Positions 14,042-23,402 of a stretch of 32,000 bases of DNA are shown here, piece by piece. How positions within the stretch are numbered: position 1 is the stretch's first letter; each line of letters opens with the position of its first letter. Where the stretch lies: positions 390,001 to 422,000 of the forward strand of contig JACQJH010000002.1 in NCBI GenBank assembly GCA_016205145.1. Direction: 5' to 3'. The DNA is from Candidatus Iainarchaeum sp. GTDB lineage: Archaea > Iainarchaeota > Iainarchaeia > Iainarchaeales > JACQJH01. The position numbers were made by a program, and so were the translations under genes. The notes beneath the pieces were generated by a model. It was not told where the DNA came from. It saw only the letters and a program-made list of their open reading frames with translations, and made no database searches.

Positions 14042-14668
14042 GTGAAAGGGTTATGTACGAGGGGTTGGCAATTGTTTGCCGAAAAGCAGGCTCAAAGGAT
14101 AACGGCTGTTTCAGCCTTCGCACTGTTGCTTGTGCTCGCGGTTGCCGTAAGCGCGCAGACCAGCACAGGCCTTGCCCAAGCCAACATTCAGCCTGCCAAT
14201 GCACCACAAGACTATTCTGAGGCAATCGCAAAAGTTTCCCCCGAACTCATGCAGCAGGCAGCGGAAAAGGCACCGGAAGCGTTCGCAAACATTCAAATGC
14301 CGCAAAACGCCACAGGTTTCCCGGAACAACCAGCCGCGGGCCAGACGCAGGAAAACGCAATTTCCATGCCTGAAAACCCAAATGGCATGCCGCAGGCAGT
14401 CAAGGCAATCTTTACGGCAAAAGACGGCGAAGACCTGCAGGCCATTGCACAAAAAATCAGGGAACTTGGCGGCACGGTCAAACAGGAATTCAAAATAGGC
14501 AATTCCCTTGTCGCTGAAATCCCCGCCGACAGGCTGTTAGAGGCAGCGTCGCAGGAAGAGGTTTCGTCCGTCTGGGACGACTTCAGCTATTTTGGTGCTC
14601 ATGTCAACCAAAAAATGGTCAACTTCCGCCACCGAACCAAACTCCAAAACAGCCGGCAAATCGCTTAA
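14042..14668 (+). CDS. Secreted protein with a subtilase-propeptide (inhibitor I9)-like domain; possibly the 5' remnant of a subtilase gene
   Basis: GTG start. Signal peptide RITAVSAFALLLVLAVAVSAQT, then a P/Q/A-rich linker. AIFTAKDGEDLQAIAQKIRELGGTVKQEFKIGNSLVAEIPADRLLEAASQEEVSSVWDD resembles a subtilisin pro-domain. No catalytic domain follows, and the last approximately 130 nt are antisense to the next gene. Confidence 0.5.
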   Translation: MKGLCTRGWQLFAEKQAQRITAVSAFALLLVLAVAVSAQTSTGLAQANIQPANAPQDYSEAIAKVSPELMQQAAEKAPEAFANIQMPQNATGFPEQPAAGQTQENAISMPENPNGMPQAVKAIFTAKDGEDLQAIAQKIRELGGTVKQEFKIGNSLVAEIPADRLLEAASQEEVSSVWDDFSYFGAHVNQKMVNFRHRTKLQNSRQIA

Positions 14669-14962
14669 AATATTCCCGGATTTTTCCCGCTTTATTGACC
14701 TTGAAAACGCTTCCAAAGAATCCAGCCATTCCAACGAAACCGAATACTTCTTGTCAGAAACAAGCAAAACCCTGTCCTTGACCATGCCAGACAAAGCCTT
14801 ATGGACGGCCCGATACGAAACAGCCAAAGAATGCTCCCGCTTCAACTTGGCAAAAACCTCCTTAGCCGACAAAGCCGAACCAGCCCCCAAAACCCGCAAA
14901 ACTGCAAAACAGACGTCGGATTTGGAACCGATGAAAGAAAAAACCATGCGAGATTTATACAT
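14537..14962 (-). CDS. wHTH regulator, apparently a C-terminally truncated paralogue of the 21093-21938 gene
   Basis: SAKEVFAKLKREHSLAVSYRAVHKALSGMVKDRVLLVSDKKYSVSLEWL aligns by eye with TAKQIHARVSRNSGKSVSYQAVHKTVAQMLSEGVLAKNGKNYSISESYI of the 281-aa paralogue. Similarity continues to ...NLFL versus ...TIFL, then the ORF stops at 141 aa. It is divergent from the AT-rich operon. Confidence 0.55.
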   Translation of the reverse strand: MYKSRMVFSFIGSKSDVCFAVLRVLGAGSALSAKEVFAKLKREHSLAVSYRAVHKALSGMVKDRVLLVSDKKYSVSLEWLDSLEAFSRSIKREKSGNILSDLPAVLEFGSVAEVDHFLVDMSTKIAEVVPDGRNLFLRRCL

Positions 14963-15017
14963 TAAAAAGGTTTAAAAAATCAACAAAAAACACTAGACAC
15001 GCCTTAAAAACGATGTA

Positions 15018-15057
15018 GAAAATTATAAAAACTTGTTAACGCTTTAGTTGTAACAAG
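15018..15057 (+). promoter_or_regulatory. Putative TATA box plus inverted repeat upstream of the AT-rich operon
   Basis: aaaattataaaaa at 15018-15030 is followed by cttgtta (15032-15038) and taacaag (15051-15057), perfect 7-nt inverted arms separated by 12 nt. AAGGTG follows at 15055-15060, and the GTG start is at 15068. Confidence 0.35.
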
Positions 15058-15067
15058 GTGCTATTCT

Positions 15068-15508
15068 GTGAACGGGGAATTTTACGATATATTGCTAGTG
15101 GATTTTAGCGGCATTTTCCCGTTTAAACTGGAAAAAGAGGATGTCCTCACAAGGCAAGAACAACTTTCACAACATAATCTAGAGACATTTTTGTTAGAAT
15201 TAGAGAAGAATCTCGGGGAAGAACTTACATACATTGGCTCGGATCTATTAGAAACAAAAATGTTCCATAGGGCATTACTAAAAGATGGGCTACTAGAGCT
15301 ATTAATTGGCACGCCCATAACCCTACTAGCACACTACAAAGAAGAAAAAAAGGCCAAAAAATTCAAAGAATCGCTCGAAAGGACATTGGAAAAAACAATA
15401 CCCGAGCATTTGGCGCCGCTGATTCAAGATTCAATTGAAATTAAAAAAATAAAAAGAGTTCTAGGGCCACCCCCACAAGGTTTTAGAAAACTCGGGAAGG
15501 TTGAATAA
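15068..15508 (+). CDS. Hypothetical protein (first gene of the AT-rich operon)
   Basis: 146-aa ORF with a GTG start after AAGGTG. Composition is E/K/L-rich and helical-looking. The stop lies 2 nt before the next ATG. No family recognised. Confidence 0.55.
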   Translation: MNGEFYDILLVDFSGIFPFKLEKEDVLTRQEQLSQHNLETFLLELEKNLGEELTYIGSDLLETKMFHRALLKDGLLELLIGTPITLLAHYKEEKKAKKFKESLERTLEKTIPEHLAPLIQDSIEIKKIKRVLGPPPQGFRKLGKVE

Positions 15509-15510
15509 TT

Positions 15511-16878
15511 ATGGTTGAAGGAATTATAACAAAATGGTCAAAATTGCAAAAATTAAAAGAAAAAGGTAAAACGAGTAGAATTACTGTTGGCATCGGTTTA
15601 TCAGAAACAAAAAATAGCGTAACAGCCACAAAAGAAGCGGCTCAAAAAGCATTAAAACAATTAAATGGCAAAAAACCAACCATTTCCTATGTTTATTATT
15701 CAGGCGAGTATGACCCGAATGAGATTAACAAAGGTTTAATTGAGGAATTAGGCGGAACCGATTATGTCGGGGGTTCCACAGACAGAGTATTATATAACGA
15801 TAGAATAATAGACAACGGGATTCTAATAGTTTCGTTACAATCCGATTTCTTGCATGTTAGCATTGCTTCAGCAGAGAATATCTCCAAAGACCCTTATGGC
15901 ATAGCAAAAAAAACGATAAAGGAAGCCGTTAGCAAACTTACCTTGGACCAATATATTGACCCATATTTACAGGTTTCAAGGATGAAACAAGGAAATGTCG
16001 AGTGGTTGCTAAAAATCCCATCATATTTTGTAATTGTTTATAGCAGAGGCCTCAAATTACCTGTAATGGGTGATGAAACAAAAATAGTTAACGCTGTTTT
16101 CAATGTGCTGGGTCCAAATGTCCCATTATTTGGCGGTAGCTATGGCGCGCCAATAGAAAAGTTGTTTGGCGGGCAGCCATACGAAATCAACATATTCCAC
16201 AATGGAAAAGTGCTGAAAGATGGCCTAGTTGTAATAATAAATGCAGGGAATATTCTCTATGGGCAAGCGCTCGAGCATGGCGCAGTCAGAACTGACAAAA
16301 TAGGATTTGTTTCCAAAACGAGCAATGAAGGCTATATAGTTAACGAAATATCCGGAAGAAACGTTATAGATTGGTATGCAGAAGAAATCGGCATTTCAAG
16401 AGAAGAATTTGAAAAAAGCAGTCAAACAATAACCCAGAGATGGCCGCTGGGCACCCCCGACGGATATGGAAACTACATTATCCGCGGTGCAGGGGTATAT
16501 AGTAAACAAAATGGGAAAGACAGCCTTGGCTATGTCGCACCACTAATCGAAGGGTGGCCCGTGTACATAATGGACGCCAAACAAGAAAACCTAATGAAAG
16601 CCTCAGACGCCATTTCCACAAAAATACAAGAGTTCACAAGCGAAACAACAAAACCAGCAGTTATTTTCGCAAATTTGTGCGCATCACGAAGAGCAATATT
16701 CAAGGAAAAATTAGTAGAAGAACAGAAAAAATTAATAAAAAAATTTGGCGGCGCGCCATTAGTGGGATTCTCATGTTATGGCGAAATAGGTTCAGCCCCA
16801 GGAAAACCAGCAGGATTCCAACACATGTCAGCGAACATATTTGTGATGTATGATAAACTCTTAAACGAACTGAAATAG
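15511..16878 (+). CDS. FIST-domain protein (FIST_N plus FIST_C-like), stand-alone
   Basis: 455 aa. N-terminal part: ITVGIGLSETKNSVTATKEAAQKALKQLNGKKPTISYVYYSG...GGTDYVGGSTD. C-terminal part: PAVIFANLCASRRAIFKEKLVEEQKKLIKKFGGAPLVGFSCYGEIGSAPG...HMSANIFVMY, matching the FIST_C pattern (C..R ... GF..yGEi ... hn.t). Confidence 0.7.
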   Translation: MVEGIITKWSKLQKLKEKGKTSRITVGIGLSETKNSVTATKEAAQKALKQLNGKKPTISYVYYSGEYDPNEINKGLIEELGGTDYVGGSTDRVLYNDRIIDNGILIVSLQSDFLHVSIASAENISKDPYGIAKKTIKEAVSKLTLDQYIDPYLQVSRMKQGNVEWLLKIPSYFVIVYSRGLKLPVMGDETKIVNAVFNVLGPNVPLFGGSYGAPIEKLFGGQPYEINIFHNGKVLKDGLVVIINAGNILYGQALEHGAVRTDKIGFVSKTSNEGYIVNEISGRNVIDWYAEEIGISREEFEKSSQTITQRWPLGTPDGYGNYIIRGAGVYSKQNGKDSLGYVAPLIEGWPVYIMDAKQENLMKASDAISTKIQEFTSETTKPAVIFANLCASRRAIFKEKLVEEQKKLIKKFGGAPLVGFSCYGEIGSAPGKPAGFQHMSANIFVMYDKLLNELK

Positions 16879-16886
16879 GACACCGT

Positions 16887-18086
16887 ATGAAAAATTTATT
16901 AACCATAGAAGAGGAATTTAAGACATTTATAGAGAATTGCAATTCTGGGGAATATAAGAATATTTTAGATGTCCCCCCTCACATTTGGGGGTTACATGGA
17001 TGGGAGCAAACCCCAAAAAAGAAAATTGAAGAGATACTATTGCCATTTATAAATCAAAACATAGAACGTGCAAAAAAGTTTATGCCAATCTACAAAAACG
17101 CTTATGCGGGCACAAACCCTAAAAAAATAGAAACAATTGAAGATTTTTGGCAAATTCCAGCATTAATAAAGGACAGCGGCAATTACGGCATAGGATTTAG
17201 GGAAAAAGTCAGAAAAAATCCGTATGTAATGCTGCCAACAGACATAAAAGAACCCACATATGTATTCCGTTCTGGAGGAACTAAAGGAGTTGCCACACCT
17301 ACAATGGTAACTAAATTCGATATCGAAGTTGAGAGTCATGGATTTGCTCGCGGCTATCGATATGAAGGAATGAAACCCGGAGATATCGCAATGAGCACAT
17401 ATAATCCAACACACAAGGGTGGAGAATGCATAAAAGAAAGTTTCATTAAAAACGGAATGACATATATACCACGAAGAACCACAGACCCGCCAAAAGAAGT
17501 AATAGACATAATCGAGGCATATAAAATTAATGTCCTCTTAACCGTGCAGGGGCCGGTCGAGAGAGGGGACAATGAGCAAAAAGGTGGTGCTGGCGGGCTA
17601 GATTTATTTAGCTTGATAGAAGCCAATAGCGACATAATTGAAAAAAATATAGACATTATTTTTTTGGGCGGGTATAGATTGATAGATGAAGCTATAACTT
17701 GGGCAGAAAATGCAAATAAGCCGTTAGTCACACTATTAGGATCATCTGAAGCAATACCTCAAGCAACAAGTACTGGACTTGGACCTAAAGACAGGCTTTG
17801 CAAATTTAATAACCTTCATGTTTTGCACGGGCCCCACTATATCGAAGTATTAAAAGAAGAGTCTGGAACATTAGTGCCAGTAAAAAAGGGAGAAACCGGT
17901 CTTTTGGCTTATACTACTGTGGCAAGACAAGGAACGTTGTATATACGATATTTTCCTGGCGATGCGGCCACATTATTAGCCAAAGAGAAGGAATGCAATT
18001 GTGGCATAAAAAGCGAAATAATTACGGATGTAAATAGAATAGATCACCCGGAAGATGTAGTAAGCACGGGTTGTTGCATCGGGTGA
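16887..18086 (+). CDS. Adenylate-forming enzyme of the PaaK / coenzyme F390 synthetase / LuxE-like clade
   Basis: 399 aa. IETIEDFWQIPALIKD; degenerate P-loop VFRSGGTKGVATPTM (compare SSGTTGKPT); STYNPTHKGGECIKESFIKNGMTYIP; LLGSSEA; LHVLHGPHYIEVLKEESGTLVPVKKGETGLLAYTTVARQGTLYIRYFPGD...CNCG. The C-terminus is ...VVSTGCCIG. Confidence 0.75.
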   Translation: MKNLLTIEEEFKTFIENCNSGEYKNILDVPPHIWGLHGWEQTPKKKIEEILLPFINQNIERAKKFMPIYKNAYAGTNPKKIETIEDFWQIPALIKDSGNYGIGFREKVRKNPYVMLPTDIKEPTYVFRSGGTKGVATPTMVTKFDIEVESHGFARGYRYEGMKPGDIAMSTYNPTHKGGECIKESFIKNGMTYIPRRTTDPPKEVIDIIEAYKINVLLTVQGPVERGDNEQKGGAGGLDLFSLIEANSDIIEKNIDIIFLGGYRLIDEAITWAENANKPLVTLLGSSEAIPQATSTGLGPKDRLCKFNNLHVLHGPHYIEVLKEESGTLVPVKKGETGLLAYTTVARQGTLYIRYFPGDAATLLAKEKECNCGIKSEIITDVNRIDHPEDVVSTGCCIG

Positions 18087-18090
18087 CAAA

Positions 18091-19680
18091 ATGGAAAATA
18101 AATTTGATAATATTATAGGCGGAAAGCAACTCACGTTAAGTGGCAAATATTTTACTGCCGTAAGCCCATTTTATGAGGATTTCCAATACTCAATAGCCGA
18201 TTCTAATTTTGCAGATATTAGTGTTGCGATATCAAAAGCAAAACTTGCGGTAGAAGAATGTGAAAAGTTAAAGTTTGAAGATCGGCAGGAAATATTGACG
18301 AAAGCTGCAAAAACAATAAAATTTTCAGATAAAGAAAAAAAGTCTGTTGTAAAAATGACTGGCATGCCAATAAAATATATTTCTAAATACCTTGAAGAAA
18401 TACCACAACTTTTAGAAAACCTGCCAACCATTGGGGTAAATCGATATGGAGTAATAAACGGAATAATCGCAAGAGACCTATATGAAAAAGAAACGTTTCA
18501 CAAAATTGAATTTCGCCACCCAGTTAATGGATTTGTATATGCAATAACTCCATCAAATGACCCGAGAACAACGACGTTGGTTTCAACAATTTTAACTATT
18601 TTAGGCATCCCCGGCATCATAAAACCAAGTAAATTTGATTGCGTGCCTGCAACAAAGGTTATTACTGCAATTATCAATGCCGGTTATCCACAAAACGCTT
18701 TAAATGTAATTTATTTTGATTCAGAAAATAAATTATCAAACACGCATAATTTCAAGTTATGCGATGCTGCTAAGGTAATTTGGCCATTTGGGGACGATAA
18801 AACTGTAGATCAGTTGCTCAGATTGGAACATAGAAAAATGCTTAATCTACAAAAAATTATGACTAACGAGAATAATATAAATCAAAAATTAGTGAAAAAA
18901 GTTCTAGACATGTTGAATAAATCAACTGATGACGCCCAAGAATATATAGAAGACCAGACAATAGATCACTTCGCATCAAAAATAGTATTAAGACACGCCT
19001 CTGGGCGGTGTGCCGGAATTGTGGATAGCGACTTTGAACCTAAAAAGGCAGTAGATTTAATACTAGAGTCCTCAATGACATACCCTATTGGTTGCAATTC
19101 GATGAAAGCGCTTTTTGTAACAGAAAAAGCATTCCTGCCCATCATAGAATTATTAAAAAGCAAATTTGCAGAATTGGAAAATAAAACCGGCGACCCGTTG
19201 GATGAAAAAACTGAAATTGGTTTGATAAACAAAGGTACGATAGATTATATGTCAAAGAGAATTAATGAATTGACATTATCTGGGCTTACTCAAACTATCG
19301 CAGGTGGCAAAAAATTAAGTGACACCCAAGTGACTCCTCGTTTAGTAACAACTAAAGACATACATTCAGAATTATTAATCAACGAAATACCAGCATACAT
19401 TTTAGCAATAAAAAAATCCGAAACATTTGAGGATGCCGTCCGGGAAGCAAATATCGCGGCGAAAGAAAGTAACAAACTAGCCATTAGCATTTTCACTAAC
19501 AACCACGAGCACATGAAAGCAAAGCTTAAGGCACACCATCTGAAAATTAACCACCCTACAACAGACGTAGATGGGATAATTCACGAAGGGAATGATTATA
19601 TAATGCAATTAACGAAACCTCATGTAGTACACATCCAAAAAAGCGAGCTAAAGAAACACCCATATAGACCCGCGGTATAA
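18091..19680 (+). CDS. Highly divergent aldehyde-dehydrogenase-superfamily protein (possibly LuxC/acyl-reductase-like)
   Basis: 529 aa. GFVYAITPSNDPRTT (Asn of WNFP), GIIKPSKFD (KPSE Lys), PQNALNVIYF, VLRHASGRCAGIVDSD (aligns with LELGGK..IV.DAD), YPIGCNSMKALFV (catalytic Cys region), and NEIPAYILAIKKSETFEDAVREAN...LAISIFTNN (EEIFGPV...AN...GL.A.VFT.D). There is an N/K/Q-rich insertion around aa 250-290. Confidence 0.7.
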   Translation: MENKFDNIIGGKQLTLSGKYFTAVSPFYEDFQYSIADSNFADISVAISKAKLAVEECEKLKFEDRQEILTKAAKTIKFSDKEKKSVVKMTGMPIKYISKYLEEIPQLLENLPTIGVNRYGVINGIIARDLYEKETFHKIEFRHPVNGFVYAITPSNDPRTTTLVSTILTILGIPGIIKPSKFDCVPATKVITAIINAGYPQNALNVIYFDSENKLSNTHNFKLCDAAKVIWPFGDDKTVDQLLRLEHRKMLNLQKIMTNENNINQKLVKKVLDMLNKSTDDAQEYIEDQTIDHFASKIVLRHASGRCAGIVDSDFEPKKAVDLILESSMTYPIGCNSMKALFVTEKAFLPIIELLKSKFAELENKTGDPLDEKTEIGLINKGTIDYMSKRINELTLSGLTQTIAGGKKLSDTQVTPRLVTTKDIHSELLINEIPAYILAIKKSETFEDAVREANIAAKESNKLAISIFTNNHEHMKAKLKAHHLKINHPTTDVDGIIHEGNDYIMQLTKPHVVHIQKSELKKHPYRPAV

Positions 19681-19681
19681 T

Positions 19682-20155
19682 ATGCACAAGAAAGCAGAAG
19701 AATTGTTATTTGCAGATCTCCTAAGTTTCGGAGAAGATGGCAAGATAAATCTATTCAACACTGCCGCATTTTTGTTGCCAAGCGATTTTGTTTTAAAATT
19801 AGAGGAAAAACTATCAACAGATGAAATTTACAGCCTATCTAAAAAAATCCCCGAACCGATAATTAAAATATTGATAGAAAGACAGATGAAAGATTTAGAA
19901 CGGCTCGATTTTATGTTGGAACTGGCAGAAGTACTTGGGATGGGGCAAATACAAATACCAGATTTTGATCAGAAAAAAAGCAAACACGAAGTAGTAATAA
20001 AAAATTCCACTACCAATAACGTATCCTGCCACCGCACAAGAGGATATTTGGCAACTATTTTTTCTGACTCACTCAAGAAAAAATTCGAATGCCAAGAAAT
20101 CAAATGTGCTTCAAAAGGGAACGAATACTGCCAATTTGTTTTGACTAGCGAGTAA
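19682..20155 (+). CDS. V4R-domain protein (stand-alone, predicted small-molecule binding)
   Basis: 157 aa. The C-terminal signature VSCHRTRGYLATIFSDSLKKKFECQEIKCASKGNEYCQFVLTSE matches the V4R Cys pattern (C..rG...g....... ec.E..C...G...C.F.l). The ATG lies 1 nt after the upstream stop. Confidence 0.75.
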   Translation: MHKKAEELLFADLLSFGEDGKINLFNTAAFLLPSDFVLKLEEKLSTDEIYSLSKKIPEPIIKILIERQMKDLERLDFMLELAEVLGMGQIQIPDFDQKKSKHEVVIKNSTTNNVSCHRTRGYLATIFSDSLKKKFECQEIKCASKGNEYCQFVLTSE

Positions 20156-20957
20156 TTCCAGAGATTTTTTCCCCGCTGAAAACATTCTCATCTTTAACTT
20201 CCAAACCAGTCGGCGTTAATTCCATCAATAGGCTATCTAAATTGTGGTTTGTTTGCCTCATTTTTCTGATCTTAAGGCTTCTTACGCTTTTTCTTGCTAT
20301 CTCTTGAATATTAACAATAATCACGCCATCAGTAATAAATTCGCTTATCCCATCCGCAGATAATCTGCCTCCTTCTTCCGGCAATTCGGATGTCAGCAAG
20401 GCTGTTTTCCCGTATTTTTTGAGTTCCTGAATTAAACGGAAGAGAATGCTTTTCGCTATGACTTGTTCCGTGCGCGGTATGGGTGAAACACTTTCAGCCA
20501 CCTGCACCAATGAGAATGCCGAGTCTTCCGTCAGGCCGGAAATCAGCAAAGCATCAGTCAGGGTTGTCATGGAGTCCACGACAATGCGTTTTGGCTGGAA
20601 TTCTGCGACCATTTCGTCGACTTTTTTGATGAAATTGTCTCCGCCGGTTATGTCAAAGTATTTGATTTTGAACAAATGCCTTGTTTCCAGTTCATCCAAG
20701 TCCCAGCCGAAGCCTTCGGCCTGCCGGTGCAATTCTTCAACTGTCTGTTCAGTGGAAATGTACAATCCTTTTTCTCCGAAAAGCTTGGCGCCGTTAATCA
20801 AAAACTGGAGGCAAAGCGTTGATTTTCCCGTTCCCGCGCCGCCTGAAATAAGCACGAGGTTGCCGGCCGGGATGCCGCCGTGCAATGCCTTGTCCAAACC
20901 CTGAATGCCGGTTTTGACCTTGTTCTCCAAATTACTAGCCTTAGCCTTGCTCTCCAC
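20145..20957 (-). CDS. KaiC/RecA-superfamily single-domain ATPase
   Basis: GIQGLDKALHGGIPAGNLVLISGGAGTGKSTLCLQF (Walker A) and PKRIVVDSMTTL (Walker B). GTG start at 20957. The 3' end overlaps the V4R gene by 11 nt in convergent orientation. Confidence 0.85.
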   Translation of the reverse strand: MESKAKASNLENKVKTGIQGLDKALHGGIPAGNLVLISGGAGTGKSTLCLQFLINGAKLFGEKGLYISTEQTVEELHRQAEGFGWDLDELETRHLFKIKYFDITGGDNFIKKVDEMVAEFQPKRIVVDSMTTLTDALLISGLTEDSAFSLVQVAESVSPIPRTEQVIAKSILFRLIQELKKYGKTALLTSELPEEGGRLSADGISEFITDGVIIVNIQEIARKSVRSLKIRKMRQTNHNLDSLLMELTPTGLEVKDENVFSGEKISGITR

Positions 20958-21092: not shown

Positions 21093-21938
21093 TCAAACTT
21101 TCCTGAAAAACTTCGCCTGCTTGCCGAGGTAGGCTTCCCTTATCTGGTCCGCCAAAGCCGGATCTTTTGCGACTATGGCAGTTATAGGCGCGGGATAGTC
21201 GCGCATTTTTGCCAAGTGTTCGCCAAGGTCAAAGCTTTCAAGGTCTTTTGGTATGCGGTTCTGTTCAAACCATGCCTGCCTAAAGGTCGGCTCGAACCAG
21301 ACGTGGCAGACGAAGTCGCCTGCAACAAAAACGTCCTGCAATGCGGAAGCCGGATTGCCGACGAAGTGCACTTCGTTTATACCGAGCTTTTTGAGCGCAT
21401 CCGCAAACATTTTGTCCAAAAAGTTTTTTTCGGCGCAGAAGCAATAGGTCGGGGTTTTTCGAAAATGTTCGGTCAGTTCCTTGTAGTCCTCGTCTTTTAT
21501 TCCCACAATCGAGTAAACCGGAGCGGTCAGGAAAATCGTGGGCTTGTTTTCCGGGTTCGGAACCTGCATCAGGCCGCCGATGAGAAAGCGGGCCAGTTCG
21601 AGTATGCCGTGGAAGTGGAAGACTGTCGCATCCTTTTTGAGCATTGCGGAAAAGTCCTGTTCCGGCTGGCCGGAATACTTTGATTCGAGGGCGTGCGCGG
21701 ACTGCTTGAGTTTTTTGATGTAGGATTCGCTTATCGAATAGTTTTTCCCGTTTTTTGCGAGCACTCCTTCGGAAAGCATTTGCGCAACGGTTTTGTGCAC
21801 TGCCTGGTAGGAAACGCTTTTGCCTGAATTGCGCGAAACGCGCGCATGGATTTGTTTTGCGGTCAGCGGCCATTCCTCGCCCAGAACGCCAAGAATTAGG
21901 TCTTTTGTCGAGTTTTTCGCGGAAAAAGCCTTATCCAA
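21093..21938 (-). CDS. wHTH regulator with an uncharacterised approximately 190-aa C-terminal domain
   Basis: 281 aa with a TTG start. N-terminal wHTH LILGVLGEEWPLTAKQIHARVSRNSGKSVSYQAVHKTVAQMLSEGVLAKNGKNYSIS. The C-terminal domain is unrecognised. Full-length paralogue of the 14537-14962 gene. Confidence 0.65.
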   Translation of the reverse strand: MDKAFSAKNSTKDLILGVLGEEWPLTAKQIHARVSRNSGKSVSYQAVHKTVAQMLSEGVLAKNGKNYSISESYIKKLKQSAHALESKYSGQPEQDFSAMLKKDATVFHFHGILELARFLIGGLMQVPNPENKPTIFLTAPVYSIVGIKDEDYKELTEHFRKTPTYCFCAEKNFLDKMFADALKKLGINEVHFVGNPASALQDVFVAGDFVCHVWFEPTFRQAWFEQNRIPKDLESFDLGEHLAKMRDYPAPITAIVAKDPALADQIREAYLGKQAKFFRKV

Positions 21939-22061: not shown

Positions 22062-22337
22062 ATGAAAATGCTTTCCGTTGCAGTCGACGAGCGGCTTGCC
22101 AAAAGCATTGATTCTGCGATTGCCTCTTCCGGCTTGTATTCTTCGAGGAGCGAGTTTTTGAAGGATGCCATCAGGAAGAACTTGTCTGGGCTGGTTGAAC
22201 AGAGTGAGGACCTGAAGGCAATCCGTGAAGGCGTTGCGCGCCTGAGAAAAAAAGCCGTTTTCCGGCCGATGACTTCAGAAGAACGGGATGCATTGGCAAT
22301 GGAAGTTATAAAAAGTGAGCGGGCGAAACGCACCTGA
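22062..22337 (+). CDS. CopG/RHH-family protein (VapB-like)
   Basis: MKMLSVAVDERLAKSIDSAIASSGLYSSRSEFLKDAIRKNL. A tandem ttattaacc-tg-ttattaacc lies directly upstream (22042-22061) and could be an operator. Confidence 0.7.
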   Translation: MKMLSVAVDERLAKSIDSAIASSGLYSSRSEFLKDAIRKNLSGLVEQSEDLKAIREGVARLRKKAVFRPMTSEERDALAMEVIKSERAKRT

Positions 22338-22725
22338 CAAAGCTTTCGGCCTTTTTGAAATCCTTCAGGTTCCAGGTGACGATTTTATCCGCATTGTTTT
22401 CAACGGCGTATGCCACATGCGCGGAATCCGCCCAGTGCAGGCCGCAGTTCCGCGAAATTTTCAAAACAAGTGCTTCGCTTGGCGCCTTTTTGCAGGTTTC
22501 CAAATTCAGCATGAAGCATTCCAACTCTTCAAAGACCGCCTTTTCCGGCAGGGAGAGCACATGAAAAATTTCATCCAGAAACATTCTCGAAACGAGCATC
22601 GTGGAACCAGCTTTTCTCGCCCAAATAAAGAAATTTTCGCTGTCTGTCCCCAGAAGATTGAAGGATGAATCAATCTCTTCCCTTACAAGCGAAATGAAAA
22701 CATTGGAGTCGAGATACAGGCGCAT
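22306..22725 (-). CDS. vapC: PIN-domain (VapC-like) ribonuclease
   Basis: MRLYLDSNVFISL (first Asp), FLDEIFHVL (Glu), WADSAHVAYA (Asp) and IVTWNLKDF (the T.N..DF C-terminal motif). Confidence 0.75.
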   Translation of the reverse strand: MRLYLDSNVFISLVREEIDSSFNLLGTDSENFFIWARKAGSTMLVSRMFLDEIFHVLSLPEKAVFEELECFMLNLETCKKAPSEALVLKISRNCGLHWADSAHVAYAVENNADKIVTWNLKDFKKAESFVRCVSPAHFL

Positions 22726-22817: not shown

Positions 22818-23402
22818 TTATTCCGGCTCCAGCTGCTGCCTTGTCTTGTCGTTGTCCCAGTTGAATGCGTGTTTTTCCTTGAGCACGAATTTGCATGCCT
22901 GGCCGCCCAAGGCAGAGCATTCGAGTTCGACGCATTCCATGTCCGCGGAGAAGAATTTTGAGAACAGGCCTGCGAGGATTCCGCGAATCAAGTGGTCTGT
23001 TTCGGCTTGTGTTTTGCCTTGCAGGTTTTCAGCGAAGGGACTGTTTGCGACTGTCACTATTGCCTGTTTTTTGTCGAAGTCCAAATCGATGTTTTGCAAT
23101 TGGCCCCAGCCGAAGGCGGTAAAGATTGTTTCAACCAGTTCAAGGCCTTTCTGCCCTTGGAGGCCGAAGTCGATGTTGAATTTTTCCATGAGCTTTTCCT
23201 GTGTCGCCTGTTTTACCGCATAATAGATTTTTTTTGCCTCGTCTTGGCTGGCTTTTGCGGTTATGGAAACGAGTATTTCGGTTGGAACCATCAGGAACTG
23301 CGTGTCAATCAAATAGAAGTTGTTGTTTTTGTATTTGAGGTTGTTCGTAACAACAAATTTGTCCAGAAAAGAGTTGAGCATGAGACCGCCTTTTGCCAGC
23401 AT
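22818..23402 (-). CDS. V4R-domain protein (native-composition paralogue)
   Basis: 194 aa. The C-terminus ETDHLIRGILAGLFSKFFSADMECVELECSALGGQACKFVLKEK is the V4R signature. In-frame ATGs at 23402 and 23381. Confidence 0.75.
   Translation of the reverse strand: MLAKGGLMLNSFLDKFVVTNNLKYKNNNFYLIDTQFLMVPTEILVSITAKASQDEAKKIYYAVKQATQEKLMEKFNIDFGLQGQKGLELVETIFTAFGWGQLQNIDLDFDKKQAIVTVANSPFAENLQGKTQAETDHLIRGILAGLFSKFFSADMECVELECSALGGQACKFVLKEKHAFNWDNDKTRQQLEPE

What the first reader, a model, noticed from the sequence alone, without database searches (positions are those of the whole stretch)
16887..19680. The ligase ends in Cys-Cys and the ALDH-like partner seems to lack the general-base Glu: LuxE/LuxC-like carboxylate reductase logic?
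Seen in sequence: the adenylating enzyme terminates in ...VVSTGCCIG-stop. The ALDH-like protein keeps the Asn (ITPSNDP), the Lys (IIKPSK), the catalytic-Cys region (PIGCNSMKALFV) and the EEIFGP-like block (NEIPAYILAI). The block that aligns by eye with LELGGK reads LRHASGR, which puts His where hydrolytic ALDHs have the general-base Glu. The FTGS...G dinucleotide motif is also degenerate (WPFGDDKTV). Established knowledge: in the bacterial luciferase fatty-acid reductase, LuxE (a PaaK-related acyl-protein synthetase) acylates a Cys close to its own C-terminus. It passes the acyl group to the catalytic Cys of LuxC (an ALDH-superfamily reductase), which releases an aldehyde. Inference: this adjacent pair could work the same way, running acid to acyl-AMP to thioester to aldehyde rather than oxidising an aldehyde.
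Basis: partly seen in the sequence, partly recalled or inferred. Interest (0 to 1): 0.65.

Follow-up and report, generated by a model that had tools for sequence, protein, structure and literature searches.

The report
LuxE/LuxC-style acid-to-aldehyde reductase pair
Two adjacent genes in a tiny symbiotic (DPANN) archaeon look like a two-protein machine that uses ATP to hang a carboxylic acid on a cysteine in its own flexible tail and then reduces it to an aldehyde, the trick known from bacterial bioluminescence, here in a new uncharacterised family that travels with a FIST "sensor" protein.

Summary
The 399-aa ligase (16887-18086) ends in GCCIG-stop. The 529-aa ALDH-like protein (18091-19680) keeps the ALDH Asn, Lys, Cys and second Glu, but has His302 where hydrolytic ALDHs have the general-base Glu.

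- **Conservation:** Gly395-Cys396 is invariant in 75/75 ligase homologues. The second Cys is not (58/75). His302 and Cys335 are invariant in 37/37 ALDH-like homologues.
- **Ligase anatomy:** it is a PaaK-type adenylating enzyme that lacks the whole ANL C-terminal domain. It ends in a low-confidence tail 11 residues after the hinge Arg384, which is LuxE's architecture.
- **Pairing:** the two genes are adjacent in every locus where this can be seen, in DPANN archaea and five bacterial phyla.
- **Wider clade:** most truncated PaaK-like ligases (55 of 63 representative clusters) end in a Gly/Ser-Cys tail. All 5 examined have an ALDH/LuxC-like gene immediately downstream.
- **Family membership:** neither window protein matches Pfam LuxE or LuxC, so this is a new variant of the LuxE/LuxC logic, not a member.

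Best reading (about 0.6): acid, then acyl-AMP, then Cys396 thioester, then Cys335 thioester, then aldehyde. Substrate and cofactor are unknown.

A FIST protein is the most constant third partner. Its invariant Cys390/Glu425 align with the aldehyde-reactive Cys326/Glu362 of human FBXO22.

The parts
16887..18086 (+). Tail-Cys adenylating enzyme (399 aa). It is a PaaK-type ANL N-terminal domain without the ANL C-terminal domain.
   Evidence: The family profile matches PaaK-like BT_0428 with E 1.9e-15, covering residues 33-380 against 6-326 of 436. Foldseek's best hits are the PaaK family, E 2e-19, TM 0.65-0.69. The AF2 model has pLDDT 90.4. No Pfam LuxE hit was found in 34 family members.
17271..17303 (+). 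P-loop / A3 motif SGGTKGVATPT (residues 129-139).
   Evidence: G130, G131 and G134 are invariant in 75/75 and S129 in 73/75. The motif aligns with SSGTTGNPT of BT_0428.
17412..17417 (+). His176-Lys177 within YNPTHKGG, which replaces PaaK's Y(G)LFTGG substrate-pocket motif.
   Evidence: Both residues are 75/75. The His is kept across most of the wider truncated clade examined and is absent from the three full-length PaaK-like relatives aligned. A role in a polar pocket or as a catalytic base is inferred.
17547..17597 (+). Family-specific flexible loop QGPVERGDNEQKGGAGG containing the invariant Lys232. It is a candidate stand-in for the missing A10 lysine.
   Evidence: The loop is absent from BT_0428 in the HMM alignment. 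Its pLDDT is 55-68. K232 is 75/75. A K-G(-G) loop is present in most truncated tail-Cys ligases aligned and not clearly so in the three full-length PaaK-like relatives. LuxE uses an N-domain Lys238 for this role (PMC9157457). The function of the loop here is inferred.
18036..18038 (+). Hinge Arg384 (A8), equivalent to LuxE Arg355 and PaaK1 Arg326.
   Evidence: R384 is 75/75. Local alignments to LuxE pair it with LuxE's RR. The roles of Arg355 and Arg326 come from PMC9157457.
18069..18083 (+). C-terminal tail GCCIG. Cys396 (18072-18074) is the proposed acyl-carrying thiol.
   Evidence: G395 and C396 are 75/75, C397 is 58/75 and G399 is 71/75. Three residues follow the Cys in 69/75 sequences and 11 residues separate it from R384 in 69/75. 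The tail pLDDT is about 53. In the wider clade, 55 of 63 truncated representatives carry a [G/S/N]-C motif in their last 12 residues.
18091..19680 (+). ALDH-superfamily partner (529 aa), the proposed acyl-thioester reductase.
   Evidence: Pfam Aldedh matches with E 1.2e-29 in two stretches. The AF2 model has pLDDT 91.4. Foldseek TM scores to classical ALDHs are 0.7-0.8. The gene starts 4 nt after the ligase stop codon.
18556..18558 (+). Asn156, equivalent to the ALDH oxyanion-hole Asn169.
   Evidence: It is 37/37. ITPSNDP aligns with ITPFNYP of GAPN.
18622..18633 (+). Lys178-Pro-Ser-Lys181. Lys178 corresponds to the cofactor-binding Lys192. Lys181 sits where NAD-specific ALDHs have Glu195.
   Evidence: K178 is 37/37 and K181 is 34/37. 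A preference for NADP(H) is inferred from general ALDH knowledge and was not tested.
18847..18960 (+). Variable helical insertion (residues 253-290) in the Rossmann half.
   Evidence: It is absent from the roughly 480-aa family members P0117-P0125. It is modelled as helices with lower pLDDT, 68-78.
18994..18996 (+). His302, occupying the column of the hydrolytic general-base Glu268.
   Evidence: It is 37/37. Partners of more distant tail-Cys ligases have Phe or Tyr there and LuxC has Phe; none has Glu.
19093..19095 (+). Cys335, equivalent to the catalytic Cys302 of ALDHs, in the loop YPIGCNSMK.
   Evidence: It is 37/37 and is present in all 13 partner proteins of other loci. It aligns with the Cys of AldA, ProA (rPstCNtvE) and LuxC.
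19384..19386 (+). Glu432, equivalent to ALDH Glu399, which contacts the cofactor ribose.
   Evidence: It is 37/37. It aligns with the EE(I/T)FGP block.
15511..16878 (+). Stand-alone FIST_N + FIST_C protein (455 aa), the most constant third partner. Invariant Cys390 and Glu425.
   Evidence: Pfam hits are. A FIST gene accompanies the ligase in 15/15 archaeal loci, directly upstream in 13; in L016 and L018 one gene intervenes. A FIST gene is also directly upstream of three remote tail-Cys ligases. The C-x-x-R and GE motifs are kept in 64/65 and 63/65 FIST homologues. They align with FBXO22 Cys326 and Glu362.
15068..15508 (+). 146-aa protein of unknown family, first gene of the operon.
   Evidence: It is conserved in 12/15 archaeal loci. 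It has no Pfam, NCBIfam or PDB match.
19682..20155 (+). V4R-domain protein (157 aa), last gene of the operon.
   Evidence: Pfam V4R matches with E 1.2e-10. It is present in 14/15 archaeal loci.
20145..20957 (-). Single-domain KaiC-like ATPase, convergent with the operon. Its 3' end overlaps the V4R gene by 11 nt.
   Evidence: Pfam KaiC matches with E 9e-59. It is present in 13/15 archaeal loci.

Best explanation
The two genes encode a two-protein, ATP-dependent carboxylate reductase built on the LuxE/LuxC plan.

1. The ligase is a PaaK-type adenylation domain with no C-terminal ANL domain. It adenylates a carboxylic acid.
2. The thiol of Cys396, on a flexible tail of about 15 residues after the hinge Arg384, attacks the acyl-AMP. 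This gives an acyl-S-protein thioester. Lys232, on a mobile family-specific loop, probably replaces the missing A10 lysine.
3. The tail then enters the ALDH-like partner and hands the acyl group to Cys335.
4. No water-activating Glu is present, because His302 occupies that position and may instead act as base for thiol exchange. The thioester is therefore not hydrolysed but reduced by NAD(P)H, and an aldehyde is released.

What is shown: the anatomy, the conservation, the loss of the C-domain, the Glu-to-His replacement and the obligatory gene pairing.

What is inferred: every chemical step, the cofactor and the direction.

The substrate is unknown. Invariant polar residues in both pockets (His176/Lys177; Asp157, Arg159, Arg306) and recurrent neighbours (aminotransferases, an amino-acid dehydrogenase, SHMT) suggest a small polar acid derived from an amino acid or 2-oxo acid, rather than a fatty acid.
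For: Ligase:
- It lacks the ANL C-domain. The profile alignment to BT_0428 stops at 326 of 436. The AF2 model ends in a low-confidence tail after strand 378-384.
- G395-C396, R384, K232 and the P-loop are invariant in 75/75.
- LuxE is described as lacking the C subdomain, with the tail motif TRxxKGCxLS, acylated Cys364, and Arg355/Lys238 (PMC9157457).
- Local alignments pair R384 with LuxE's Arg and GC with GC.

Partner:
- It has a full ALDH fold.
- The equivalents of Cys302, Asn169, Lys192, Gly245 and Glu399 are invariant, and His sits at Glu268.
- Loss of that Glu is what prevents thioester hydrolysis in non-hydrolytic ALDHs (review PMC12041015; LuxC paper).

Pairing:
- The genes are adjacent in every locus that extends past the ligase: the window plus 19 of the 20 genome loci, the other (L015) being cut by the contig end.
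- In the wider truncated clade, 55/63 representatives carry a G/S-C tail.
- All 5 of 5 looked up have an ALDH/LuxC-like gene directly downstream. None of those partners has Glu at the 302 column.
- A LuxC domain fused to a PaaK-like ligase exists (P0224).
- EhpF, a solved ANL enzyme lacking the C-domain, is a structural hit. Its gene sits next to ehpG, an ALDH-family gene.

FIST partner:
- It carries the positional equivalent of the aldehyde-reactive Cys of FBXO22. This fits an aldehyde product.
Against: - There is no biochemical evidence.
- Neither window protein reaches Pfam LuxE or LuxC. Profile-profile scores against single LuxE and LuxC sequences are poor: probability 2% and 0.6%. The resemblance could therefore be convergent or merely architectural.
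- The dinucleotide fingerprint is degenerate. The glycines of the canonical dinucleotide-binding motifs other than the Gly245 equivalent are not evident by eye; HMMER does not align residues 208-304. Cofactor binding is thus unproven.
- Asn156 is replaced by Ser in the Omnitrophica homologue and is likewise lost in the Parachlamydiales one (aligned segment PFFSI).
- No complex model could be built, so the reach of the tail into the partner is untested.
Confidence: 0.6

Rival explanations
1. Carrier-dependent route. The ligase transfers the acyl group to free CoA or another small thiol, and the ALDH-like protein is an ordinary acyl-CoA reductase or CoA-acylating aldehyde dehydrogenase. The tail cysteine would be regulatory or structural.
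For: The nearest solved relatives are CoA ligases of the PaaK family. According to a preprint that discusses LuxC, LuxC itself can reduce acyl-CoA in vitro. CoA-acylating ALDHs also lack the general-base Glu (review).
Against: The whole ANL C-terminal domain is missing. In ANL enzymes that domain helps form the pantetheine tunnel and carries out the thioester half-reaction (established knowledge of domain alternation). An invariant Gly-Cys on a flexible tail co-occurs with loss of the C-domain: 55/63 truncated representatives have it, whereas the full-length relatives whose C-termini were read end in the usual Lys-containing C-domain without it.
Confidence: 0.12
2. Reverse operation for energy conservation. 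The ALDH-like protein oxidises an aldehyde to a Cys335 thioester, passes it to Cys396, and the ligase runs backwards (acyl-S plus AMP plus PPi gives acid plus ATP).
For: Every step is chemically reversible, and ALDH-fold enzymes without the Glu can work in both directions (review). DPANN archaea have few ways of making ATP (general knowledge). L035 shows a FIST gene next to an ALDH gene without a ligase.
Against: From general thermochemistry, thioester energy is lower than that of ATP going to AMP plus PPi, so the reverse reaction needs unusual PPi and AMP levels. In the Parachlamydiales locus the pair sits in a biosynthesis-like cluster with a methyltransferase, an ATP-grasp enzyme and SHMT. 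The known analogue LuxCE works reductively, and EhpF/G is proposed to (recalled from the literature).
Confidence: 0.08
3. The ligase is an amide- or ester-forming PaaK-like enzyme, as NatL2 and ClxA are, or a plain adenylating enzyme. The tail cysteine is a metal ligand together with Cys370/Cys372/Cys305. The ALDH-like protein acts on a separate step.
For: ClxA and NatL2 are among the top structural hits. Cys305, Cys370 and Cys372 are invariant or nearly so.
Against: Cys305 and the CxCG motif also occur in full-length PaaK-like proteins that have no tail Cys, such as BT_0428. Family members that lost CxC (P0045, P0067, P0135) still keep the GC tail. AF2 does not pack the tail against those cysteines with confidence. 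The strict adjacency to an ALDH/LuxC-like gene would be left unexplained.
Confidence: 0.07
4. The terminal C-C-I-G is a CaaX-like box, with Cys at position -4, for lipid modification or processing of the protein.
For: In 69/75 family members the invariant Cys is exactly four residues from the end. Some Micrarchaeota have a polytopic membrane protein gene inserted between the two genes.
Against: In 6/75 family members and throughout the wider clade the Cys lies 3 to 9 residues from the end. The membrane protein is present in only 6/15 archaeal loci and in no bacterial locus. It has no detectable prenyltransferase homology.
Confidence: 0.02

Closest known systems
LuxE/LuxC fatty-acid reductase of luminous bacteria (PDB 7XC6; PMC9157457)
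   Same: - The adenylating subunit is related to PaaK and lacks the ANL C-terminal subdomain.
- A short flexible tail after the hinge Arg carries a Gly-Cys.
- The partner is an adjacent ALDH-superfamily protein with the catalytic Cys but no general-base Glu.
- The proposed relay is from Cys to Cys, followed by NAD(P)H reduction to an aldehyde.
   Different: - No Pfam LuxE or LuxC match for the window proteins, and only weak local alignments.
- The Cys lies 3 residues from the end, against 9 in LuxE.
- The candidate replacement lysine (Lys232) sits in a different loop from LuxE Lys238.
- The partner keeps the Asn169, Lys192 and Glu399 equivalents and an ALDH-like fold overall. It has His where LuxC has Phe.
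- The pockets look polar rather than lipid-like.
- The hosts are archaeal, with no lux genes. The pair is accompanied by FIST, V4R and KaiC-like genes.
EhpF/EhpG of D-alanylgriseoluteic acid (phenazine) biosynthesis (PDB 3HGU, 3HGV, 3L2K)
   Same: - EhpF is a structural hit with TM 0.63-0.64 normalised to EhpF.
- Its gene lies next to ehpG, an ALDH-family gene.
- From the literature as I recall it: EhpF is a solved ANL enzyme without the C-terminal domain, and the pair was proposed to convert a carboxylate into a formyl group through an adenylate.
   Different: - Sequence similarity is marginal, E 0.03.
- I could not read EhpF's C-terminus, so whether it carries a tail Cys was not tested.
- The substrate there is a phenazine dicarboxylate in a bacterial antibiotic gene cluster.
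PaaK-family aryl/acyl-CoA ligases (BT_0428 4R1L, PaaK1 2Y27, ClxA, NatL2)
   Same: These are the best sequence and fold matches for the N-terminal domain. They share the P-loop, the YG.TE-like block, the R-Y-x-x-G-D block, CxCG and the hinge Arg.
   Different: - They keep a C-terminal domain of about 110 residues with the A10 Lys (residue count; the A10 Lys seen in the C-termini of full-length relatives) and use CoA or an amine (per the literature).
- They lack the Lys232 loop, the His176-Lys177 motif and the tail Cys.
Reductive or non-hydrolytic ALDH-superfamily enzymes: gamma-glutamyl phosphate reductase (ProA/AlDH18), CoA-acylating AlDH20, methylmalonate-semialdehyde dehydrogenase
   Same: - The general-base Glu is lost.
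- For AlDH18 the review states that a conserved His replaces the Glu and may deprotonate the Cys (PMC12041015).
- The active-site loop yPigCNs.K resembles ProA's rPstCNtvE.
   Different: - The score against the proA model is 26 bits against a cut-off of 317.
- In my HMM alignment E. coli ProA's conserved His lies 6 columns downstream of His302, so the two histidines may not be equivalent.
- No kinase or CoA partner is present here. The partner is an adenylating enzyme.
FIST_C domain of human FBXO22
   Same: The operon's FIST protein shares the C-x-x-R and G-E-I-G motifs. Cys390 and Glu425 align with Cys326 and Glu362, the site that forms a reversible hemithioacetal with aldehydes.
   Different: - FBXO22 is a eukaryotic F-box substrate receptor, and its known aldehyde ligands are synthetic degraders.
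- The profile hit is weak (E 0.3), although the window FIST protein matches Pfam FIST_C and FBXO22's Cys326 region is described as a FIST_C domain.
- The residue-level alignment used an FBXO22 sequence I recalled from memory. I validated it only by its length and by four published residue numbers.

Membership tests
ANL superfamily, PaaK-like branch | Sequence and fold similarity of the N-terminal adenylation domain | tested here: met
   The family profile matches BT_0428 with E 1.9e-15. Foldseek gives E 2e-19 and TM 0.65-0.69 to PaaK, BT_0428 and ClxA. The Pfam AMP-binding hit is weak: 21 bits, below the 29.9 cut-off.
ANL superfamily, PaaK-like branch | Core motifs: P-loop (A3), Asp of A7, hinge Arg of A8 | tested here: met
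   SGGTKG, D359 and R384 are invariant in 75/75.
ANL superfamily, PaaK-like branch | C-terminal domain of about 110 residues with the A10 catalytic Lys | tested here: not met
   The protein ends 15 residues after the hinge Arg. The alignment to BT_0428 covers only residues 6-326 of 436. Full-length relatives keep the domain.
LuxE acyl-protein synthetase (Pfam PF04443) | Match to the family model | tested here: not met
   0 of 34 family members match LuxE at E<=1. hhalign of the family against LuxE 7XC6_E gives probability 2%. A broader clade profile gives 82% for the N-terminal third only.
LuxE acyl-protein synthetase (Pfam PF04443) | No ANL C-subdomain. Instead, a short tail with a conserved Gly-Cys after the hinge Arg | tested here: met
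   The LuxE features are taken from PMC9157457.
LuxE acyl-protein synthetase (Pfam PF04443) | N-domain lysine (LuxE Lys238) replacing the A10 Lys | tested here: inconclusive
   The residue at the position matching LuxE Lys238 by motif comparison, after the GG of 'FLGGY' (LuxE 'GGGWK'), is variable. An invariant Lys232 lies in a nearby flexible loop found mainly in the truncated clade. Its reach to the ATP site was not modelled.
LuxE acyl-protein synthetase (Pfam PF04443) | ATP-dependent self-acylation on the tail Cys | not testable with these tools
   This needs biochemistry.
LuxC acyl-protein/acyl-CoA reductase (Pfam PF05893) | Match to the family model | tested here: not met
   The window protein has no LuxC hit at E<=1. 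Of 37 homologues, 24 have weak hits (best 7.7e-8), always far below their Aldedh hit. hhalign against LuxC 7XC6_A gives probability 0.6%.
LuxC acyl-protein/acyl-CoA reductase (Pfam PF05893) | Catalytic Cys retained and general-base Glu absent | tested here: met
   Cys335 is 37/37 and the column of Glu268 holds His in 37/37. LuxC has Phe there.
LuxC acyl-protein/acyl-CoA reductase (Pfam PF05893) | NADPH-dependent reduction of a protein-bound thioester | not testable with these tools
   Only partial cofactor-site residues can be seen: Lys178, Lys181, Gly234 and Glu432.
Hydrolytic NAD(P)+ aldehyde dehydrogenases (Pfam PF00171) | Match to the family model and ALDH fold | tested here: met
   Aldedh scores 103.7 bits against a cut-off of 23. 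Foldseek TM scores are 0.7-0.8.
Hydrolytic NAD(P)+ aldehyde dehydrogenases (Pfam PF00171) | Catalytic triad Cys302, Asn169 and Glu268 | tested here: not met
   Cys and Asn are present. Glu268 is replaced by an invariant His302.
Hydrolytic NAD(P)+ aldehyde dehydrogenases (Pfam PF00171) | Canonical dinucleotide fingerprint (the Gly-rich loop before the FTGS block, and FTGS...G) | tested here: inconclusive
   The Gly245 equivalent (Gly234) is invariant. The other glycines are not evident by eye, because HMMER does not align residues 208-304. The segment is nevertheless strongly conserved within the family.
Gamma-glutamyl phosphate reductase (ProA, TIGR00407) | Match to the family model | tested here: not met
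   The score is 26 bits against a cut-off of 317, for residues 297-356 only.

The most novel reading that the evidence does not exclude
The real unit may be a triad: a FIST protein, a tail-Cys ligase and an ALDH-like reductase. In DPANN archaea it is extended by the 146-aa protein, a V4R protein and a KaiC-like ATPase.

In this reading the aldehyde made by the enzyme pair is captured as a reversible hemithioacetal on the family-wide conserved FIST_C cysteine. That cysteine is Cys390 here and Cys326 in human FBXO22. The FIST protein would then either sense the aldehyde or hand it on.

This would give FIST domains, whose natural ligands have been unknown since the domain was defined, a native ligand class (aldehydes). 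It would also explain why FBXO22 is so readily hijacked by aldehyde degraders.
Probability: 0.2. Interest if true: 0.85.

Novelty: new variant of a known kind. Interest (0 to 1): 0.6.

Why it matters
**Reach of the mechanism.** If correct, the CoA-independent "swinging cysteine tail" route for reducing acids to aldehydes extends beyond bioluminescence. That route is otherwise known from LuxE/LuxC and proposed for EhpF/EhpG. It would then cover a large unannotated clade spanning DPANN archaea and several bacterial phyla. The clade can be recognised by simple sequence hallmarks:
- an ANL N-domain only;
- a K-G-G loop;
- a terminal Gly-Cys;
- a partner of ALDH fold without the general-base Glu.

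**Physiology.** A CoA-free way of making aldehydes is relevant for genome-reduced symbionts.

**Biocatalysis.** The pairs would be compact two-gene alternatives to the large carboxylic acid reductases (CARs).

**FIST proteins.** The constant association with a FIST protein whose conserved Cys matches the aldehyde-reactive Cys of FBXO22 turns the long-open question of what FIST domains bind into a directly testable one.

Tried and rejected
**Direct homology to LuxE and LuxC.**
- Pfam gives no LuxE hit and only weak LuxC hits in some homologues.
- hhalign against single LuxE and LuxC sequences taken from PDB 7XC6 gives probabilities of 2% and 0.6%.
- Membership is rejected. The architectural analogy is kept.

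**A Cys4 metal site involving the tail.**
- CxCG and Cys305 also occur in full-length PaaK-like proteins.
- The tail Cys persists where CxC has been lost.

**A CaaX box.**
- The distance of the Cys from the C-terminus varies in the wider clade.

**Small ORFs upstream of the bacterial ligases as possible carrier or precursor peptides.**
- The two examined are unrelated to each other.

**The 146-aa protein.**
- No Pfam, NCBIfam or PDB profile match was found.

**The membrane protein of about 320 aa inserted between the ligase and ALDH-like genes in some Micrarchaeota.**
- Its GDIRDTKFD motif reminded me of the UbiA motif NDxxDxxxD.
- Neither Pfam nor a PDB profile search supports this.

**EhpF's C-terminus.**
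- My attempt to read it from the PDB sequence search failed, because EhpF was not among the printed alignments.

**Literature searches.**
- Searches for a description of this family or of the FIST-ligase-ALDH-V4R-KaiC module found nothing.

**Limits of the tools.**
- Model coordinates are not exposed, so I could measure no distances (Cys396 to the ATP site, Lys232, cofactor pocket).
- No complex prediction was possible.

Full report
**1. What is there**

The window comes from a Candidatus Diapherotrites (DPANN) archaeon. The exact proteins are on record from a 637-kb contig, named 'hypothetical protein' and 'aldehyde dehydrogenase'.

The finding lies inside a tightly packed plus-strand operon of five genes:
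- a 146-aa protein without any family match (15068-15508);
- a stand-alone FIST_N+FIST_C protein (15511-16878);
- the 399-aa adenylating enzyme (16887-18086);
- the 529-aa ALDH-like protein (18091-19680), starting 4 nt after the ligase stop;
- a V4R protein (19682-20155).

A KaiC-like ATPase gene converges on the operon and overlaps its end (20145-20957, minus strand). The operon is markedly poorer in G+C (35-40%) than its flanks (about 50%).

**2. The observation**

The eye alignment of LRHASGR with LELGGK is upheld by profile alignments:
- The family HMM aligns 'KivlrHasGr' with 'KRVIVEMGGK' of the P5C dehydrogenase 3QAN.
- It aligns S304-G305-R306 with G253-G254-K255 of E. coli AldA. By ungapped extension, this puts His302 on AldA's catalytic Glu251.

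Conservation excludes chance:
- Among 37 homologues, Asn156, Lys178, Gly234, His302, Cys335 and Glu432 are invariant.
- Among 75 ligase homologues of 39-77% identity, Gly395-Cys396 is invariant.
- The second cysteine is replaced by Ala, Val or Met in 17 of the 75.

The conserved feature is therefore a terminal Gly-Cys, not Cys-Cys.

**3. The ligase**

*Fold and truncation.*
- Sequence and fold place the ligase next to PaaK-type ligases.
- The alignment with BT_0428 ends at residue 326 of 436, and the window protein stops 15 residues after the hinge Arg384. The whole ANL C-terminal domain, with its A10 lysine, is missing.
- The AF2 model is confident overall (pLDDT 90). The exceptions are the last ten or so residues (about 53) and a family-specific loop at 221-240 (55-68) that carries the invariant Lys232.

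*Comparison with LuxE.*
- This is the architecture reported for LuxE: no C subdomain, a short tail 'TRxxKGCxLS' whose Cys364 is acylated, and Arg355 plus an N-domain Lys238 doing the work of the usual Arg/Lys pair (PMC9157457).
- Local alignments with the LuxE sequence from PDB 7XC6 pair Arg384 with LuxE's Arg and Gly-Cys with Gly-Cys. They are not statistically significant for the family profile.
- A broader profile reaches 82% hhalign probability, but only over the N-terminal third.
- No member hits Pfam LuxE.

I therefore treat the protein as working like LuxE without being a LuxE family member.

**4. The partner**

- The AF2 model (pLDDT 91) has a complete ALDH fold. It is closest to classical ALDHs (TM 0.7-0.8) and not specifically to LuxC.
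- The residues retained are the nucleophile (Cys335), the oxyanion-hole Asn (Asn156), the cofactor Lys (Lys178), the Gly of FTGS (Gly234) and the ribose-binding Glu (Glu432).
- Lys181 stands where NAD-specific enzymes have Glu195. From general ALDH knowledge this would favour NADP(H).
- The other glycines of the dinucleotide fingerprint are not evident in this region, which the HMM leaves unaligned. A helical insertion (253-290) is dispensable in shorter homologues.
- The water-activating Glu is replaced by an invariant His.

A review of the superfamily states that loss of this Glu stops thioester hydrolysis. It also states that LuxC, CoA-acylating ALDHs and gamma-glutamyl phosphate reductases keep little more than the Cys, and that a His replaces the Glu in the last group (PMC12041015). 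The active-site loop 'yPigCNs.K' resembles ProA's 'rPstCNtvE'. However, ProA's conserved His falls six columns away from His302 in my alignment. LuxC has Phe in the His302 column.

**5. Comparative genomics**

*The pair itself.*
- Twenty genome loci carry a relative of the ligase. They come from Iainarchaeia, Micrarchaeota, Altiarchaeales, Nanoarchaeia, Aenigmatarchaeota, Woesearchaeota, Chloroflexota, Nitrospirae, Ignavibacteriales and Parachlamydiales. An Omnitrophica locus was found separately.
- The ALDH-like gene is adjacent in every locus that is not cut by a contig end.

*The wider clade.*
- A search of 1.8 billion representative proteins found 1312 relatives.
- Among the best 146 representatives outside the starting family, 63 end soon after the hinge. 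Of these, 55 carry a Gly/Ser/Asn-Cys within the last 12 residues.
- Most of the eight exceptions look like fragments or variants such as 'GACGAI'.
- The 64 long ones extend well beyond the hinge. Those whose C-termini were read end in the usual C-domain.
- Most of the truncated ligases aligned share a K-G(-G) loop and a His in the YNPTHKGG block, which the three full-length PaaK-like proteins aligned lack or do not clearly have.
- I looked up five distant tail-Cys ligases. All five are followed directly by an ALDH/LuxC-like gene.
- None of these partners has Glu in the His302 column. They have Phe or Tyr there, as LuxC has Phe.
- A natural fusion of a LuxC domain with a full-length PaaK-like ligase also exists (P0224).
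- EhpF is a structural hit and its gene is adjacent to the ALDH-family gene ehpG. As I recall the literature, EhpF is a solved ANL protein without the C-domain, and the pair was proposed to make a formyl group from a carboxylate.

**6. Mechanism**

The best-supported reading is therefore as follows.
1. The ligase adenylates a carboxylate.
2. Cys396 on the flexible tail takes the acyl group.
3. The tail delivers it to Cys335 of the partner.
4. Since no hydrolytic base is present, NAD(P)H reduces the thioester to an aldehyde.

His302 may serve as the base for thiol exchange and Lys232 as the substitute for the A10 lysine. All chemical steps are inferred.

The rivals are all less well supported, for the reasons given in their entries:
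- a carrier-dependent route using free CoA;
- reverse operation to make ATP;
- an unrelated adenylating or amide-forming role with a metal-binding tail;
- a CaaX-like signal.

**7. Substrate hints**

- The substrate-pocket motif of PaaK (Y-G-L-F-T-G-G) is replaced by Y-N-P-T-H-K-G-G with invariant His176-Lys177.
- The partner has invariant Asp157 and Arg159 next to the Asn, and Arg306 next to His302 (35 Arg and 2 Lys of 37).

The neighbours recur:
- in Chloroflexota and Omnitrophica loci, a class I/II aminotransferase, an SHMT-GcvT fusion, a PRK-like kinase, M14 carboxypeptidases and GcvH/P;
- in Parachlamydiales, an MBL-fold protein, a methyltransferase, SHMT and an ATP-grasp enzyme;
- in a Nanoarchaeia locus, two class IV aminotransferases;
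- next to a distant pair, an ELFV amino-acid dehydrogenase.

These point, weakly, to a small polar acid related to amino acids or 2-oxo acids rather than a fatty acid.

**8. The module around it**

In 15 archaeal loci the counts are:

| Gene | Loci |
|---|---|
| FIST | 15/15 |
| ALDH-like | 14/15 (the exception is cut by a contig end) |
| V4R | 14/15 |
| KaiC-like | 13/15 |
| 146-aa protein | 12/15 |

- FIST genes also sit directly upstream of three of the five distant tail-Cys ligases.
- In one further locus a FIST gene is followed by an ALDH gene without any ligase.
- Another distant FIST gene has the classical sensor context, with a histidine kinase and a GGDEF response regulator.
- The FIST family has an invariant Cys390 in C-x-x-R and an invariant Glu425 in G-E-I-G. 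These are kept in 64/65 and 63/65 FIST homologues, including distant bacterial ones.
- The only solved relative found is human FBXO22 (E 0.3, profile positions 351-408 against residues 312-368).
- I aligned an FBXO22 sequence recalled from memory. I checked it by its length of 403 and by C227/C228, C326, E362 and Y390 all falling on their published numbers. It reproduces the same coordinates and aligns Cys390 with Cys326 and Glu425 with Glu362.
- Cys326 of FBXO22 forms a reversible hemithioacetal with aldehydes, and Glu362 supports it (PMC12407915; bioRxiv 10.1101/2023.11.01.564830).

A FIST protein carrying that site, possibly translationally coupled to a predicted aldehyde-forming enzyme pair (its stop codon lies 8 nt before the ligase start), fits an aldehyde product. 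It also suggests that the FIST protein binds or senses that aldehyde. This is the most novel reading and it is speculative.

**9. Novelty and verdict**

I found no description of this family or module in the searchable literature. The sources call the proteins hypothetical, PaaK-like, F390-synthetase-like or aldehyde dehydrogenase.

The mechanism class is known from LuxE/LuxC and probably from EhpF/EhpG. The pair is therefore a new variant of a known kind: a different lineage of both components, a different residue at the key position, archaeal hosts and a new set of partners.

Interest is moderate to high. The reasons are the breadth of the unrecognised tail-Cys clade and the FIST-aldehyde link, both of which are directly testable.

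Noticed in passing
window 15068-20957: A six-gene module is conserved across DPANN loci, with some variation in gene order. It consists of the 146-aa unknown protein, FIST, the tail-Cys ligase, the ALDH-like protein, V4R and a convergent KaiC-like ATPase. Counts in 15 loci: FIST 15, ALDH-like 14, V4R 14, KaiC 13, 146-aa protein 12. A more distant version recurs in L031.
   Followed up: partly
window 15511-16878 (Cys390 codon at 16678-16680, Glu425 codon at 16783-16785): The FIST_C motifs C-x-x-R and G-E-I-G are nearly universal in FIST homologues (64/65 and 63/65). They align with Cys326 and Glu362 of human FBXO22, the site that forms hemithioacetals with aldehydes. The residue-level alignment used an FBXO22 sequence recalled from memory and checked only by published residue numbers.
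   Followed up: partly
P0129-P0274 (representative search); loci L028-L033: There is a large clade of C-terminally truncated PaaK-like ligases of about 350-420 aa. Of 63 representatives, 55 end in G/S/N-Cys plus 2-9 residues. All five examined have an ALDH/LuxC-like gene directly downstream. Two representatives (P0168, P0195) have an O-methyltransferase fused at the N-terminus. P0224 is a fusion of LuxC with a full-length PaaK-like ligase.
   Followed up: partly
L001 9194-10171; also L008, L010, L011, L013, L015: In six Micrarchaeota/Iainarchaeia loci a polytopic membrane protein of about 320 aa is inserted between the ligase and ALDH-like genes. It has invariant motifs LLEAEHKH..R and GDIRDT.FD. 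No Pfam or PDB match was found. The resemblance of the second motif to the UbiA Asp-rich motif is unconfirmed.
   Followed up: partly
L004, L020-L022, L025, L003/L017: Bacterial homologues of the pair share synteny with an SHMT-GcvT fusion protein of about 900-1050 aa (plain SHMT in Parachlamydiales), a class I/II aminotransferase, a PRK-like kinase of about 575 aa, M14 carboxypeptidases and GcvH/GcvP. This suggests a link to glycine, serine or other amino-acid metabolism.
   Followed up: partly
L035 5001-7619: A distant FIST gene is followed directly by an ALDH-family gene, with no ligase. Another distant FIST gene (L034) precedes a histidine kinase and a GGDEF response regulator.
   Followed up: no
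window about 15000-20000: The operon is a low-G+C stretch (35-40%) within flanks of about 50%. Together with the patchy distribution across DPANN and bacterial phyla, this suggests horizontal acquisition.
   Followed up: no
window 21093-21938 (-) and 14537-14962 (-); L001 155-6047: There is a family of proteins of about 280 aa with no Pfam match; one L001 copy has a weak precomputed FUR hit. Seven tandem paralogues sit upstream of the module in L001, one copy sits downstream in the window, and the window also has a short 141-aa relative.
   Followed up: no
window 22062-22337 (+) and 22306-22725 (-): An RHH (CopG-like) gene and a PIN-domain gene lie on opposite strands with their 3' ends overlapping by 32 nt. 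This is an unusual arrangement for a VapBC-like pair.
   Followed up: no
window 22818-23402 (-): A second V4R-domain protein (194 aa) is 27% identical to the operon's V4R protein. In several other loci the V4R gene of the module resembles this paralogue more closely.
   Followed up: no
L016 6397-7944, L018 6343-7923, L031 9845-11443: A protein of about 515-530 aa with an N-terminal Rossmann (SDR-like) motif is inserted between the FIST and ligase genes in two archaeal loci. A 532-aa protein with a similar weak N-terminal Rossmann-type (KR) hit lies downstream of the pair in L031, but its relatedness to the other two was not tested. These could be a further reductase of the pathway.
   Followed up: no
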